Positions 2,028 through 50,904 of a DNA stretch of 64,000 bases are shown here, in pieces (positions within the stretch are counted from its first letter, which is position 1; every line of letters starts with the position of its first letter). The notes below the pieces were generated by a model that was given only the letters and a program-made list of their open reading frames with translations, did not search any database and had not been told where the DNA came from. The position numbers were made by a program, and so were the translations under genes. The stretch comes from Eledone cirrhosa (taxonomy: Eukaryota). The stretch spans positions 233,554,001 through 233,618,000 of the forward strand of contig OZ024740.1 of assembly GCA_964016885.1 (NCBI GenBank). Direction: 5' to 3'.

Positions 2028-2200
2028 TAACAAAGAAAGTGTGGTCGGATAAAAGGTGGACCATAACGCACCAGAGTAAACGATACTTAGGGTAGTAGAG
2101 TGGGTAATAGGAAAAGAGCCAGGACTGAGCCAGCTTAGTTCGGATCTAGCTGTCGCAACGGCCGGAGCTCTGCCGTCGGGGTCCTGACTCTTTTCCTATT
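2028..2200. mobile_element. (TA)n-embedded island, family A (PLE-type 3' end with inverted part)
   Basis: GGTGGACCATAACGCACCAGAGTA...CTTAGGGTAGTAGAGTGGGTAATAGG shared with 4880, 21236, 26841, 41103, 60154 and 60429; flanked by TA tracts. Confidence 0.75.
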
Positions 2201-3593
2201 ATATATATATATATATATATAGTTATGTAATAAACAACATAAGGCAATTATTCCATTTACCAGTGGTTTCTTAAAAGCAAAAAATTTTGCTTTCAATCAT
2301 CAGAATGAAAAAATCCTGGTGTATTTATTAAGCTCTGTTACCTACATAGAGCACTCTTTTTTCCTGGATTTTACGACGGAATTACTTCATTTACACACAC
2401 ACACACACACACACACACACACACACACACATATATATATATATATATATATATATATATATATATATATATATATATATATATATATATATATATATAT
2501 ATAGTTGTTATTAGACGTTCGACCTTCTATTTGCTTCAATCAAGAGAACTGCTACCTCATCGTGATATTAATGTGTACGTGGCTGAACATTCCACAGATA
2601 CGTGCACACTACGCCTATCTAACTAGTATGTTTATAGAACTATCAAATATAGTAATACCGAACTAGAAGAAATACGTATATTCAGTGCTGGGTTTAGGAC
2701 AAATGAGGCTCTGTGCTAGTTAAGTTATGATGTCCCATACTTGGGCCCTGAAGGAGGTAAAAAGATATTTTGGCAGGAAGATGGGTTCCCCTGGTCAACG
2801 GAGTCCTGTGCTTAAGCACAGCTATATACAATGGTAAATCCAGCACTGCATACGTTCTGAGTGCTTGCAGCTATATATTAAATTATCCACTATATTATAG
2901 ATACCTATTTGTACAAAAACCTTACAAGAGTCCAATCAAGCTGCAGGAAATGTGCATCTAAATAGATATATTTATGTATGTAAACAAGTAAACATGGAAA
3001 CATGTAACCCTGTTTTATTCAGGCAGTTTTCTGTAGATTGAATATGATCAACATTTTGACCACTTTTTCGGTTCTAGCTGAAATCATGTTCAGAAGCTGT
3101 GTACCTTTCTCTCTGGTTTGTAATACATTTACACAACTTCTAAGAATGGTTCAAACAAGAATCAAAACTCAGGTCAAAATGTTCAGCTATTTCATTCCCC
3201 GGAACCAATGTCTAAGTAGGACATGGTTACATGTTTAACTATAGAAATATATATATATATATATTATATTTCTCGCAGCTTTGGCTAAATACAGGTAAGG
3301 TGTATGTACAGATAAACACACACAAGCACAAACACACAAATGCTCGCACACGCACACACACACACACACACATAAACATATGATTGCGTGCGCACTCACA
3401 CGATTGCTCACACTCACACGCACATATATACTTATAGATAATATATATATATAGGTGTGGGGTGTATTTGTATGTGTGTGCATTTATGGGTGTGTATATA
3501 TATGGTTATGTATATATATATATATATACGTGTGTCTGTGTGTATTATAATTAATCTGTTAATGATCCATTACTGTCTTACACACACACACAC

Positions 3594-3682
3594 ACACGTA
3601 GTTTAACTACACCTGTGATCTTTCAGACGGGTTTCATGAAACAAGTCTGAAAGATCACAGACGTAGTTAAATTTGCGCGTGT
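3594..3682. repeat. Palindrome/foldback in (CA)n context containing the HHR 3' half GAAAC-AA-GTC
   Basis: TTTAACTAC..CTGTGATCTTTCAGAC / GTCTGAAAGATCACAG..GTAGTTAAA around centre GTTTCATGAAAC. Confidence 0.75.
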
Positions 3683-3841
3683 GTGAATCTTCAAATAATG
3701 GTGTATGATTCAAAACGGAATCACACACACACACACACACTTAACCAAACACACACACTCACACACACACACACACATATACATATATATATACAGATAT
3801 TTTGTAACTAACCTTACATAGTTCGATAACAATTACTCAGT

Positions 3842-3985
3842 GCATTACTGGTACTTTATTTTATCGACTCCGTAAGGAAAAAAGGCAAACTTAACCTCGA
3901 CGGGATTTGAACTCAGACCGTAAAGGGACGTAACTATGCTGGAAAGCATGGCGTCTGACCCTCTACCGATACTGCCAATCCACCA
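3842..3985 (-). mobile_element. tRNA-derived SINE family 1
   Basis: Reverse complement of the family consensus including A and B boxes. Confidence 0.85.
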
Positions 3986-4879
3986 ATGTATCGCGATCAG
4001 AAGTAATATAACACTGTTTATCACTTGGGTAAAAAAAAAATATGATTTGAATCTTAAGCATTCGTATTTCACGAAACTTATATTAAGATATAGATTTAGG
4101 TGTTAGAAGGGGAGTCAAACTATAAGTTCGATATTTTATTAGGAGATTCTTTAGACCGGCTGATGTAATGTCTTGCATTGGTAAAATAAAGTACCAGTAA
4201 TACAATGGGGTAATTGCTGGCCTTATGCCAAAAGTAGAAACAATTATCTATTGACGGTCCTTTACGTTCTGTCTTTAAATTCAGATGTGGGAGACTTCAT
4301 TTTTCGTCCTTCCGTGTTGATAAAACAAGTATTATTCTAGCAATCGAGACAATATAATTGACAGTTCCTAAGTAATCATTACCACATTCACTTTCACGTC
4401 ATTTCAAACTGGGTCTTTTGGAACGTTTGCTATAAAATTTGGGGCTACAATATCAGTTATTTTGTAAACTTTAACAATATATTATTGTAATTGCATGATC
4501 TGTTATGAAAATAATATAGGTGAGAAATATTACAATATAATCCAATACCAGATTTCAAAGCAACATAATCTCTAACCATATAGCTAAATCTCCTTATTCT
4601 GAAAAAAAGGTGGACATATTTTAATAACATAGACCTAGGTACGGAATACCCGATAAAAGGAACAGATGGTCATGGCTGGAACGATCTTTGATGTTTTCTT
4701 TCCGCAGAAGATTGACTAAACAACTATAACAATTTCTTGATTACCTATTTACTTGACTTGAAAGGCGTATATATACATATACATACACAGACAGATAGAA
4801 AGACAGTCACCCCCCCCCCCCCCCCACACATATATATATATATATATATATATATATATATATATATATATATATATAT

Positions 4880-48419: not shown

Positions 48420-50194
48420 AAATATTTAACATTTACTTTATACATTTCAATTAAAAAGAAATGTCTTCTTTCATACTTTTCATGCTGTACCAGTTTCTTT
48501 CGAGTAGTTTGAGACAAAGTTGCAGTTGTGGTTCCACTTAGTGCAGTATATATTTTGCAGCAAAGACATTGATATTAGCAGGGCATTTAATGTTGATGTT
48601 TTTATGTTATTGCGAAGGAAAAAAAACTCTTTCTACAGCTGCTGAAGAATATAGCAATGAAATAAGTTGCATCGTAGCAATATATGTCACATTTTTCTTG
48701 AGAAACAAGAAACCATTATTTCTCAGGGCGGTGGATTGGCAGTATCGGTAGAGGGTCGGACGCCATGCTTTCCAGCATAGTTACGTCCCTTTACGATCTG
48801 AGTTCAAATCCCGCCGAGGTTGACTTTGCCTTTCATCCTTACGGGGTCGATAAAATAAAGGACCAGTAATGCACTGGGTAATTGCTGGCCTTGTGCCTAA
48901 AGTAGAAACAATTATTTCTCAGGCTCATTTTATGCAATAAGAGATGCATCTTGCAGAGGAAATACCCTCCATTCTCTATATATTTGATGATATTAGTATC
49001 CATATACAAGGTTGGAAAATGTCATTGCCAATGTTGTGATCAGTTTTGGTTTACTGTCAGTAACATTGGTCAGGTCTAAAACTACTTGAACAAGCTGCTT
49101 GTTGGTAGAAATGTCCATCTACAATAAGGAAGAATTTTGCTGAATTTAGCTTAGACAATAAATATTTGAAAGCTTGAGGACCGACCACATTTCAAGAAAG
49201 TGCAAGTTCTTTAATTTATTGCGCACTTGACGTCTTTGGCGATGTTTTAATCAGAGCCTACGTTGGTAATAAGGCTAGGGAAATGATCCAAAATAGAAAT
49301 GAGTAGGGTGTGCTCAGCTGATGCTATTTATGTTAAATGAATGGAACAGGCTTTATGAAATATGTCACCTTCACTACTTGTTTCGCTACTTTCACATTCT
49401 TTTTTAGTGTTTTTTTCCCTTCATGCCTTATTTGACTTAAGCTACCAGCTATCTCACAATTGCACACTTTACAGTAGCCTTTACTTGTGTTCTTTTCACT
49501 CAATTCCAAACTCGATAAAAATATTTCATAGTTTAATAATTGTTGGGGAACTTTTTCTTTCATAGAAAGTAGATTTCATTATTTTTTCTTCTGAGAAGTA
49601 TAATCTTCGTTACTATCAGAAGGATATTCTACATTCATTTTTTTCCACTCATTACGGGTTCAAAATGTTTCTCAAAAAAGCAAAACAGTTCAGATCTAAA
49701 AAGATTACACGACCAAAGCCCACAGCTCGCCATGAAACAGCTGATTTAACTGAACTGATACGATTGTCTTCCAGGAATTCCTCTTAGTCCATCTGTATTT
49801 AGAATACCTTGCGTATTGTCAGTAGAATCTATTCAAGTAAACCGTCCACTGATTGATTGTGAGCAAATAGTGGGTTATTATAGGCTGCCAGGATTATACA
49901 GAATCTGGTTGGCTACCGATTTGAAATACTATGCAGAAGATTTATTAATGTCAAGTGAGATGTGTTGGGCAAATATATTTAATGGATCGCATCTCGATGT
50001 AAAATTTGTTATAGTTGATAAATGGCAAATCATTAAATGGTGATTTTAGAATATCAATTTAGCCAAATTTGCAAAACAAGTACAATCTCTAAAACGTGCC
50101 AAAAATTCCTGAGGTGGTCCCAAACGTAAAGAAAAGTCAAATTAAGGATAAATAGTACCAAATTTGTATGAACGTACCAAATTCGGCAGCGCTG
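48420..50194 (-). mobile_element. Decayed hAT (Tip100-like) DNA transposon
   Basis: Zinc-finger-like GYCKVCNCEI...RHE, then AEH...DH..L....D..IAKDVKC and FFLIVD; terminus CAGCGCTGCCGAATTTGG at 50194; many stops. Confidence 0.7.
48727..48916 (+). mobile_element. Full-length SINE family 1 inserted in the hAT fossil, TSD ATTATTTCTCAGG
   Basis: A-box TGGCAGTATCGGT, B-box GAGTTCAAATCC; 13-bp direct repeats at 48715 and 48911. Confidence 0.92.
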
Positions 50195-50468
50195 ATCTTG
50201 ATAGAAACGGTACGCTAATTACTCAATACATTTAGTAAAGTATATTTATGTGTATGTCTGTGTAGTTTAAACGTTCTTAAATGAATAACTATAGGCGTAG
50301 GCATGGGTGTATGGTTTATGTGTTAGCTTCGCAAACATGTAATTTCGTGTGCATTTGAACTACGTGGCACCTTCCTCAAGTGTTTTATACTAAAGGGTCT
50401 TGTGAGCACAATAGAGTGGATGAAAACTATGCGGAGATCCGTCTTGTATATATATATATATATATATA

Positions 50469-50673
50469 CGTAGGTCCCGGGTTGAGTCGGGGATAACCAC
50501 AGTAAGTAAGGTACTCAATACATGGCAGAGTAAAAATTTTTTTATTTTATAGAAGGAGCTTCTACATGACTAGTACTGTTTCATTCAGATGAAATCTTCA
50601 GGAAGCTTCCTGAAGATTTCATCTGAATGAAACAGTACTAGTCCTGTAGAAGCTCCTTCTATAAAATAAAAAA
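50469..50673 (-). mobile_element. (TA)n island with spacerless palindrome 50538-50673
   Basis: 68-bp arms centred on AAG|CTT (50605/50606), one mismatch seen. Confidence 0.9.
50604..50654 (+). ncRNA. Type I hammerhead ribozyme (mirror copy on minus strand 50557-50607)
   Basis: AGCTTC-CTGAAGA-T TTC ATCT GAA T-GAAA-CAG TACTAGTC CTG-TA-GAAGCT; stem I 6 bp, GUA triplet. Confidence 0.82.
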
Positions 50674-50701
50674 TATATATATATATATATATATATATAT
50701 A

Positions 50702-50904
50702 GTAATAATAATAAATTTGAAGACTAAAATCCAAAGAGGGCTCGATAAGGATAAATATATATCAAATATATAAGAACTGTAGAGCAAATATTTATTAAAA
50801 TAACGGATTAAAGTTTAAGCAAAGAATCGTTGCTTTCACCCTTAACGGGATCTTCTGAAAGCAGCGATTCTTTGCTTAAACTTTAATCTGTTATTTTAAT
50901 AAAT
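50702..50904 (-). mobile_element. Family E island with foldback 50789-50904
   Basis: Homologous to 20960-21180, 42660-42810 and 57346-57486. Confidence 0.75.

What the first reader, a model, noticed from the sequence alone, without database searches (positions are those of the whole stretch)
2028..50904. Islands fold back into palindromes at copy-specific points
Seen: at least 12 long inverted repeats with arms of 25-250 bp (3594, 4962, 9908, 15125, 22983, 24235, 24755, 26919, 33317, 47448, 50538, 50789). Family A copies turn round at different positions (GAGCTC at 4987, after GGACT at 26980, near 21335), while others such as 60429 do not turn. These are therefore not fixed MITE TIRs. One end usually keeps an unpaired 3' tail running into (TA)n, and several turns fall on HHR stems or short palindromes (10004/5, 50605/6, 4987/8). 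Inference: integration involves cDNA snap-back or template switching that manufactures genomic palindromes, an extreme form of the inverted partial pLTRs known in Penelope. If transcribed they would give long dsRNA, potential ADAR or Dicer substrates.
Basis: partly seen in the sequence, partly recalled or inferred. Interest (0 to 1): 0.75.

Follow-up and report, generated by a model that had tools for sequence, protein, structure and literature searches.

The report
Penelope palindromes joined at RNA cap
The mirror-image DNA islands are real and are short back-to-back copies of the ends of several jumping-gene families, one shown to be Penelope-like and the others likely so, a layout already known; their joints suggest that both ends of the cut chromosome likely copied the same RNA separately, often right up to its cap, and were then joined head to head.

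Summary
Observation confirmed: all 12 listed inverted repeats exist (20 local hits against 0 in 10 shuffles). Family A is the 3' end of a Hydra-type Penelope-like element (PLE); ten more islands share its build: a tailed arm, an inverted tail-less arm, two fixed outer ends in (TA)n. That architecture is published. The island at 3594 does not belong. Turns differ letter by letter but are not scattered: in family A the longer arm stops 128-143 nt from the 3' end in 29 of 31 unselected pairs. At such stop points in three families, arms carry an extra G (30 of 40, against 22 of 158 elsewhere), on both arm types, as expected from copying an RNA cap. Either arm can be the longer one, some pairs do not overlap, short joints lack microhomology, and the two arms share variants. 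This favours two separately primed cDNAs from one template joined head to head over snap-back. Island 24235 is a tRNA-headed family without the extra G. No RNA or long-read data were found, so dsRNA, ADAR and Dicer claims are untested. The scan noted this reading before on other DNA of this genome.

The parts
2030..2201 (-). Family A, older subfamily: tail-only tailed arm (2030-2113) joined to an inverted tail-less arm (2135-2201); inversion with almost no pairing
3594..3680 (.). 39-bp-arm hairpin with CA/TG flanks; no tail, one weak other genomic match; not part of the PLE set as far as tested
4881..5017 (-). Family A: tailed arm 117 nt plus inverted tail-less arm; turn on the 8-nt palindrome in the predicted ribozyme stem III (the one short joint with long microhomology)
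9911..10302 (+). Family B: tail-less arm 9911-10004, tailed arm from about 10002 with a CTGATGA core and a tail to about 10302; 965 first-look candidates in the genome
15051..15380 (-). Family E: tailed arm 15051-15270, inverted tail-less arm 15286-15380; two fixed 3' ends among 22 local hits
21244..21360 (-). Family A copy turning near 21335 at the stem III palindrome
22987..23830 (.). Family F: about 550-nt unit found in partial tandem, two preferred outer ends about 40 nt apart, inverted partner of variable length
24238..24579 (+). Family G: tail-less arm 24238-24352, tailed arm 24353-24579; about 270-nt tandem unit, no hammerhead found by my descriptor
24356..24429 (+). tRNA-like head of family G, forming the spacer of this palindrome (Rfam tRNA 37.6 bits, gathering score 29; ARAGORN call)
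24755..25200 (+). Family C: inverted tail-less arm 24755-24940, tailed arm 24941-25200 with a CTGATGA core-like motif; joints vary among 25 loci
26842..27045 (-). Family A: tailed arm 142 nt and tail-less arm from 140, both reaching the stop zone
33320..34105 (+). Family H composite: tailed arm ending near 34105, inverted tail-less arm from 33731, an inverted tail piece at 33324-33346 and other repeats nested between
47447..47650 (+). Relative of family E: short tail-less arm 47447-47489, tailed arm to about 47650, turn on a short palindrome
50447..50672 (-). Family D: tailed arm 50447-50605, tail-less arm 50606-50672; both start at the inferred transcription start, which is the 5' edge of a minimal type I hammerhead motif; joined through 4 shared letters
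50702..50905 (-). Family J: tailed arm 50702-50860, tail-less arm 50856-50905; hammerhead-like motif with a variant core; young family (40 of 40 scored hits identical over 99 nt)
60154..60295 (-). Family A: 80-nt tail-only arm joined to a tail-less arm reaching 142; no palindrome
60435..60501 (-). Family A tail-only piece, no turn

Best explanation
The islands are head-to-head double copies of element 3' ends set in (TA)n, Penelope-like in family A and likely so in the others, and they likely arise when both ends of the cut target prime reverse transcription on the same RNA, at two fixed start sites, and the two cDNAs are then joined end to end. Shown: family A is the 3' pLTR of an element with RT and C-terminal GIY-YIG endonuclease; outer ends are fixed at 1 and 78 nt from the 3' end; inner ends pile up at one zone; arms share variants; an extra G marks the zone on both arm types. 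Inferred: the zone is a capped RNA polymerase II start inside the pLTR, so most copies come from short RNAs of about 140 nt in family A; one cDNA starts at the tail end, the other 78 nt inside; each runs to the cap or stops early (the tail-primed one would have to displace the other, or use a second RNA from the same source); end joining trims a few letters, adds short or templated inserts, and uses microhomology mainly when arms are truncated.
For: Element identity: locus L083 has a 5' pLTR (4020-4228) and an ORF, read in two frames, with RWR, DKT, GLYRDD, CxCx5C, CxxC and CxH motifs; 1068 homologs at E<=1e-20. Fixed outer ends: tailed end at position 1 in 64 of 75 pairs, tail-less end at 78 in 56 of 75. 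Two RT start sites bounding the tail, and cutting and extension of both DNA strands, were measured in vitro for another PLE (PMC11167929, parts 1-2 of 4 read). Stop zone: longer arm <=143 nt in 31 of 31 unselected pairs. Extra G: family A 11 of 12, D 9 of 15, J 10 of 13; together 30 of 40 against 22 of 158 at other end positions (Fisher p 2e-13); after dropping cases where the partner arm or a templated insert could supply the letter, 13 of 14 against 9 of 53 (p 2e-7); 17 on tailed and 13 on tail-less arms. An extra G with little microhomology marks full-length L1 insertions (PMC11702581, passages). Either arm longer: 8 and 7 of 15 long pairs; 4 of 79 pairs do not overlap. One template: 54 variants shared between partner arms against 13 expected; partner divergence 5.1% against 12.4% between copies, 0 of 5000 permutations. 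Joints: short ones 3 of 22 with >=2 nt microhomology (null 17%), long ones 6 of 12 with >=3 nt (null 5%, p 1e-5). Internal contrast: the tRNA-headed family G shows G in 1 of 15 arms at its two stop points.
Against: The stop positions in A and D were chosen after seeing the data; only J was retested on 30 new loci. Most G cases (17 of 30) can also be read as coming from the partner or a templated insert. Family A has a second pile-up at 140-142 nt where G is rare (2 of 13 at 142). No RNA data show the start site or a cap. Central deletions of an originally perfect palindrome could also make either arm shorter, and gene conversion could make arms share variants. The excess of longer tail-less arms (20 against 8 of 31) is inflated because very short tail-less arms were scored as solos. 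Two pairs (L009, L124) disagree at subfamily sites. An ORF link was shown for family A only. Pfam gave no family for the L083 protein.
Confidence: 0.68

Rival explanations
1. Snap-back or self-priming (first reader; self-priming proposed in PMC3846280): one cDNA folds on itself and is copied back, with later cutting at the fixed site; unequal arms come from later central deletions.
For: Arms share variants, as a copy of a copy would. Turns on short palindromes exist (4987/8 with 8 shared letters, 50605/6 with 4). Long joints are rich in microhomology. Templated inserts at joints show that cDNA ends realign on themselves.
Against: Tail-less arm longer by up to 2.1 kb in 7 of 15 long pairs; non-overlapping pairs; extra G on tail-less arms, including one whose partner is only 53 nt of tail (L072); 19 of 22 insert-free short joints have 0-1 shared letters.
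Confidence: 0.15
2. Hybrid: the internally primed cDNA reaches the cap, folds back to start second-strand synthesis, and anneals to a short cDNA primed at the tail from the other target end.
For: Explains the fixed end at 78, shared variants, and the many pairs with the longer tail-less arm (20 of 31).
Against: Predicts the tailed arm is never longer and never carries the cap G; it is longer in 8 of 15 long pairs and carries G in 17 cases.
Confidence: 0.08
3. The stop zone is a reverse transcriptase pause at RNA structure (ribozyme stems), not the RNA 5' end, with G as a preferred untemplated addition.
For: In D and J the stop is the 5' edge of predicted stem I; family G has a stop cluster at the 3' edge of the tRNA T stem.
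Against: A polymerase moving 3' to 5' along the RNA meets a stem at its 3' edge, yet D and J stop after passing the whole motif; in A the stop is in a loop; G is enriched only at one A preceded by pyrimidines in each family.
Confidence: 0.06
4. Amplification or assembly chimeras, or MITEs with terminal inverted repeats.
For: No independent record bridging a unique joint was among those shown; no long reads were available.
Against: Partner arms differ by 1.5-8% in long pairs, outer ends are family-fixed, the tail is one-sided, arm lengths run from under 50 nt to over 2 kb, and family A continues into a retroelement ORF.
Confidence: 0.03

Closest known systems
Insertion unit of endonuclease-bearing Penelope-like elements: pLTR, adjacent inverted 5'-truncated copy, one-sided tail (PMC8557442 section 6 read; PMC3846280 and PMC2377424 passages read)
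   Same: Head-to-head inverted truncated copy of variable length, tail on one end only, partial tandems, palindromes at the joint, promoter inside the pLTR.
   Different: Here nearly all copies are reduced to about 140-200 nt double pLTR stubs; tails are 78-90 nt in families A, D, J rather than 30-40; the published suggestion is self-priming, while the joints here point to two cDNAs.
Hydra clade of C-terminal endonuclease PLEs (PMC8557442 section 11 read)
   Same: DKT, RWK-like RWR, CxCx5C linker, no CCHH pair, CxxC and CxH motifs, (TA)n target.
   Different: L083 is about 3.6 kb plus pLTR (published families generally under 3 kb); the family A hammerhead core is a variant (CTGAGAAG in 44 of 57 long copies); no tree was built.
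PAc of Anolis, in vitro (PMC11167929 parts 1-2 of 4 read)
   Same: Two RT start sites bounding the tail; both DNA strands cut and extended; AT-rich target; uncut ribozyme RNA is used as template.
   Different: Penelope/Poseidon clade; in the parts read the paper does not derive inverted copies from the two start sites.
L1 twin priming and the cap-derived extra G (PMC11702581, passages read)
   Same: Second target end primes a second cDNA; inner joint made by end joining; extra G and little microhomology when copying reaches the cap.
   Different: In L1 the second priming site is variable and uses microhomology, and the two pieces barely overlap; here the second site is fixed and both cDNAs usually run to the same 5' end, giving a duplication.
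Metazoan non-LTR retrozymes (PMC7229834 passages; bioRxiv 10.64898/2026.07.22.740005 part 1 of 5 read)
   Same: Non-coding short units in tandem tied to PLE pLTRs (families F and G are tandem units with PLE-type ends).
   Different: No hammerhead was found in F or G by my descriptor; G has a tRNA-like head instead.

Membership tests
EN+ Penelope-like element (family A) | ORF with RT and GIY-YIG endonuclease | tested here: met
   L083 ORF in two frames with GLYRDD and VIY...YIG motifs; 1068 homologs; Pfam itself gave no hit, so the domain names rest on motifs as described in PMC8557442
EN+ Penelope-like element (family A) | pLTR from partial tandem | tested here: met
   209-nt 5' copy of the 3' end directly before the ORF in L083
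EN+ Penelope-like element (family A) | Inverted 5'-truncated copy and one-sided tail | tested here: met
   75 tailed plus tail-less pairs; ends at 1 (64 of 75) and 78 (56 of 75)
EN+ Penelope-like element (families B-H, J) | Link to an RT/endonuclease ORF | not tested
   Only architecture (two fixed ends, inverted partner, (TA)n) and hammerhead-like motifs were examined
EN+ Penelope-like element | Target-site duplication | not testable with these tools
   Insertions lie in (TA)n, where a duplication cannot be told
Hydra clade | DKT and RWK motifs | tested here: met
   DKT present, RWR in place of RWK
Hydra clade | CxCx5C linker, no CCHH, CxxC and CxH near the C terminus | tested here: met
   All seen in the L083 translation
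Hydra clade | Canonical hammerhead in the pLTR | tested here: inconclusive
   Family A core is a variant and was not found by my descriptor; D passes, J passes with one substitution, B has CTGATGA in 11 of 18; Rfam gave no hammerhead hit
Hydra clade | Placement in an RT tree | not tested
   No reference PLE proteins were at hand
MITE | Fixed terminal inverted repeats at both ends and uniform length | tested here: not met
   One end carries an unpaired tail; arm lengths vary from under 50 nt to over 2 kb
tRNA-derived SINE (family G) | tRNA-like head | tested here: met
   Rfam tRNA above gathering score; ARAGORN call
tRNA-derived SINE (family G) | LINE-derived 3' end with simple-repeat tail | tested here: not met
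   Two fixed ends about 40 nt apart, inverted partner and partial tandems, as in PLEs
tRNA-derived SINE (family G) | Polymerase III transcription | not testable with these tools
   No RNA data; a T5 run follows the head, and 43 of 80 body arms continue through it

The most novel reading that the evidence does not exclude
Penelope-like elements integrate by obligatory double priming: one RNA is copied from both target ends at two programmed start sites, and the pLTR's own promoter makes short capped RNAs that spread as a very large class of polymerase II mini-elements. The same machinery also carries a tRNA-headed, uncapped parasite (family G), that is, a SINE driven by a PLE rather than a LINE. 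The genome would hold on the order of 100,000 such self-made palindromes from family A alone.
Probability: 0.5. Interest if true: 0.7.

Novelty: new variant of a known kind. Interest (0 to 1): 0.5.

Why it matters
How PLEs form their inverted repeats and tails is named as unresolved in PMC8557442 (discussion passages), and the published suggestion I found is self-priming (PMC3846280). The joints here give countable predictions that an existing in vitro system (PMC11167929) can test: a cap G on both arms, either arm longer, one template. Family A alone gave 34 pairs and 36 other pieces in 924 kb (sample weighted to the large chromosomes), so these insertions are a large source of inverted repeats in this genome. 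Whether they feed RNA editing or small-RNA pathways is open; if transcription starts at the joint it would run outward and give no hairpin, so only read-through transcripts would.

Tried and rejected
Rfam scans of the window and of two palindromes gave hairpin-type miRNA matches below gathering score and no hammerhead. Pfam found nothing for the element protein. Run search: no RNA holder listed. Laying contigs and RAD reads showed other joint forms of families A, B and G and the same fixed ends, but no listed record bridged a unique window joint, so this neither confirms nor refutes. A first exact-match junction parser over-called inserts because of copy-specific changes; only its null rates and distinct-joint count are used, and one search replaced it. 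No A-to-G strand excess in 15 long family A pairs (48 A>G, 69 T>C, p 0.25), so no trace of editing in these DNA copies. A G-to-T site that seemed to differ between arms was dropped: it lies in a CpG and the loci were selected for it. My hammerhead descriptor missed A, C, F, G, H, 3594 and 47448, and its family B test used a wrongly cut stretch. A last genome search for family A returned nothing, a failure of the first look since the query is in the genome. Rows dropped before counts: duplicate loci, 3 of 34 unselected pairs that were tail-tail or tail-less-tail-less, pairs under 91% identity, and end positions where the reference letter is itself G. Paper searches listed no paper that derives PLE inverted copies from double priming or reports a cap G on both arms; subscription papers and supplements were not seen.
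Full report
Setting. The window is G000:C1:233554001-233618000 of a 3.0-Gb genome, 35% GC and rich in (TA)n. That it is an octopus-like mollusc is my recollection plus the wording of earlier scan notes, not a tool result.

Observation. With microsatellites masked, self-BLAST finds 20 local inverted hits against 0 in each of 10 shuffles. All 12 listed sites exist, with arms 82-100% alike. 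Eleven have an unpaired tail on one side and (TA)n outside. The hairpin at 3594 has CA/TG flanks and one weak other match and is set aside.

What family A is. Walking upstream from genomic copies reached locus L083: a 209-nt 5' copy of the element end, then an ORF read in two frames, then a long 3' region. The protein has RWR, DKT, GLYRDD, CxCx5C, a GIY-YIG-like core without the cysteine pair, CxxC and CxH. These are the marks listed for the Hydra clade in PMC8557442 (section 11 read). It has 1068 homologs at E<=1e-20; Pfam names none of it. The same paper (section 6), PMC3846280 (passages) and PMC2377424 (passages) describe an inverted truncated copy next to the pLTR, a tail on one end and a promoter inside the pLTR. 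The architecture is therefore known.

Outer ends are fixed. Counting from the 3' end, the tailed arm ends at 1 in 64 of 75 pairs and the tail-less arm at 78 in 56 of 75. Families E, G, J and F also show two preferred ends. PMC11167929 (parts 1-2 of 4 read) measured two RT start sites bounding the tail and extension from both DNA strands in another PLE.

Inner ends cluster. In 924 kb of unselected sequence (the window and 86 stretches) family A gave 34 pairs and 36 other pieces. In the 31 tailed plus tail-less pairs no arm passes 143 nt, and the longer arm ends at 128-143 in 29. Family D turns within about 10 nt of one site in 20 of 30 selected loci. Joints still differ letter by letter. So the turns are copy-specific but not scattered.

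The cluster looks like a capped RNA start. Arms ending at one A preceded by pyrimidines carry a non-reference G just upstream: 11 of 12 in A, 9 of 15 in D, 10 of 13 in J; 30 of 40 against 22 of 158 at other end positions (p 2e-13). Removing cases where the partner arm or a templated insert could supply the letter leaves 13 of 14 against 9 of 53 (p 2e-7). The G is on 17 tailed and 13 tail-less arms. The positions in A and D were picked after looking; J was retested on 30 new loci chosen by the tail alone. Family A has a second pile-up at 140-142 with few G. An extra G with little microhomology is the mark of cap copying in full-length L1 insertions (PMC11702581, passages). In A it lies in the loop of the predicted stem II, so the short RNA would lack half the ribozyme core. 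No RNA data confirm the start.

Snap-back against two cDNAs. Folding back from the tailed cDNA cannot make the inverted arm longer than its template. Among 15 long pairs the tail-less arm is longer in 7 (for example 279 against 2419 nt) and the tailed arm in 8. In 4 of 79 pairs the tailed arm is shorter than the tail, so the arms do not overlap; one of these has the G on its tail-less arm (L072). Insert-free short joints share 0-1 letters in 19 of 22; 16 of 38 short joints have inserts; long joints share 3 or more letters in 6 of 12 against 5% by chance. The joint at 4987/8 is the exception, with 8 shared letters, and may be a true fold-back or a later collapse. Later central deletions could mimic unequal arms and are not excluded.

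One template. Partner arms share 54 variants against 13 expected in long pairs, and differ by 5.1% against 12.4% between copies in 22 unselected short pairs (0 of 5000 permutations). Subfamily letters mostly agree between arms; two pairs disagree. Long partner arms still differ by 1.5-8%, which fits aged genomic DNA and not amplification chimeras; read laying neither confirmed nor refuted a unique joint.

Family G (24235). Its spacer is a tRNA-like head of a unit of about 270 nt that occurs in partial tandem, with PLE-type double ends and inverted partners. Arms stop at the 5' end of the head or at the 3' edge of its T stem, and show G in only 1 of 15, as an uncapped RNA or a structural stop would give. 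Its coding partner was not found. Paper searches listed no tRNA-headed element driven by a PLE; earlier scan notes report such elements in other genomes, none for this sequence.

dsRNA. Untested. No RNA holder was listed, and 15 long pairs show no A-to-G strand excess.

Earlier scan notes. I reached the two-cDNA reading before the first look-up and the cap reading, which showed that other agents had reached the same on other DNA of this genome. These notes are not counted as support. The Hydra label came to me and was then tested on motifs.

Verdict. Real, and in layout already known for Penelope-like elements. The value lies in the joint statistics, which favour double priming on one capped RNA over self-priming and can be tested directly. 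Interest 0.5; new variant of a known kind.

Noticed in passing
window 24238-24579; loci L193-L222, L283-L312: tRNA-headed tandem family with Penelope-type double ends and no hammerhead found; the head is flanked by a short inverted repeat and followed by a T5 run; candidate PLE-driven SINE.
   Followed up: partly
window 53828-53956 and 52933-53031: A perfect 43-bp inverted repeat around a (TA)n tract, part of a larger inverted duplication (52933-53031 against 53914-54008), with no match in the loci held; nearby 20023-20272 and 20306-20829 match 53052-53819 in split orientation.
   Followed up: no
window 46071-46593 and 47648-48180: Two blocks of about 210 nt repeated in inverted orientation 1.3-2 kb apart at 95-98% identity.
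   Followed up: no
tails of families A, B, C, D, E, G, J: A short shared motif (CTC followed by a pyrimidine or G, a purine and C) lies 3-14 nt beyond the tail-less end in unrelated families; seen by eye, also noted in earlier scan findings.
   Followed up: no
L361 and L382 (family J joints): Joint inserts repeat the end of the arm together with the extra letter, as if the cDNA end realigned and was recopied more than once.
   Followed up: no
L083:7600-7720 (family A): Hammerhead-like fold with a variant core (CTGAGAAG in 44 of 57 long copies) and a long stem II loop; activity unknown.
   Followed up: partly
window 1714-1833, 3823-3984, 5936-6310 and about 15 more sites: A very abundant dispersed repeat of about 190 nt, often in pieces and in tandem; SINE-like by recollection.
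   Followed up: no
L087:1-5758: A 59-bp tandem array of at least 5.7 kb abuts the truncated 5' end of a long family A copy.
   Followed up: no
window 3594-3680 and L315: Old hairpin with one weak relative on another chromosome that lacks the second arm; origin unexplained.
   Followed up: partly
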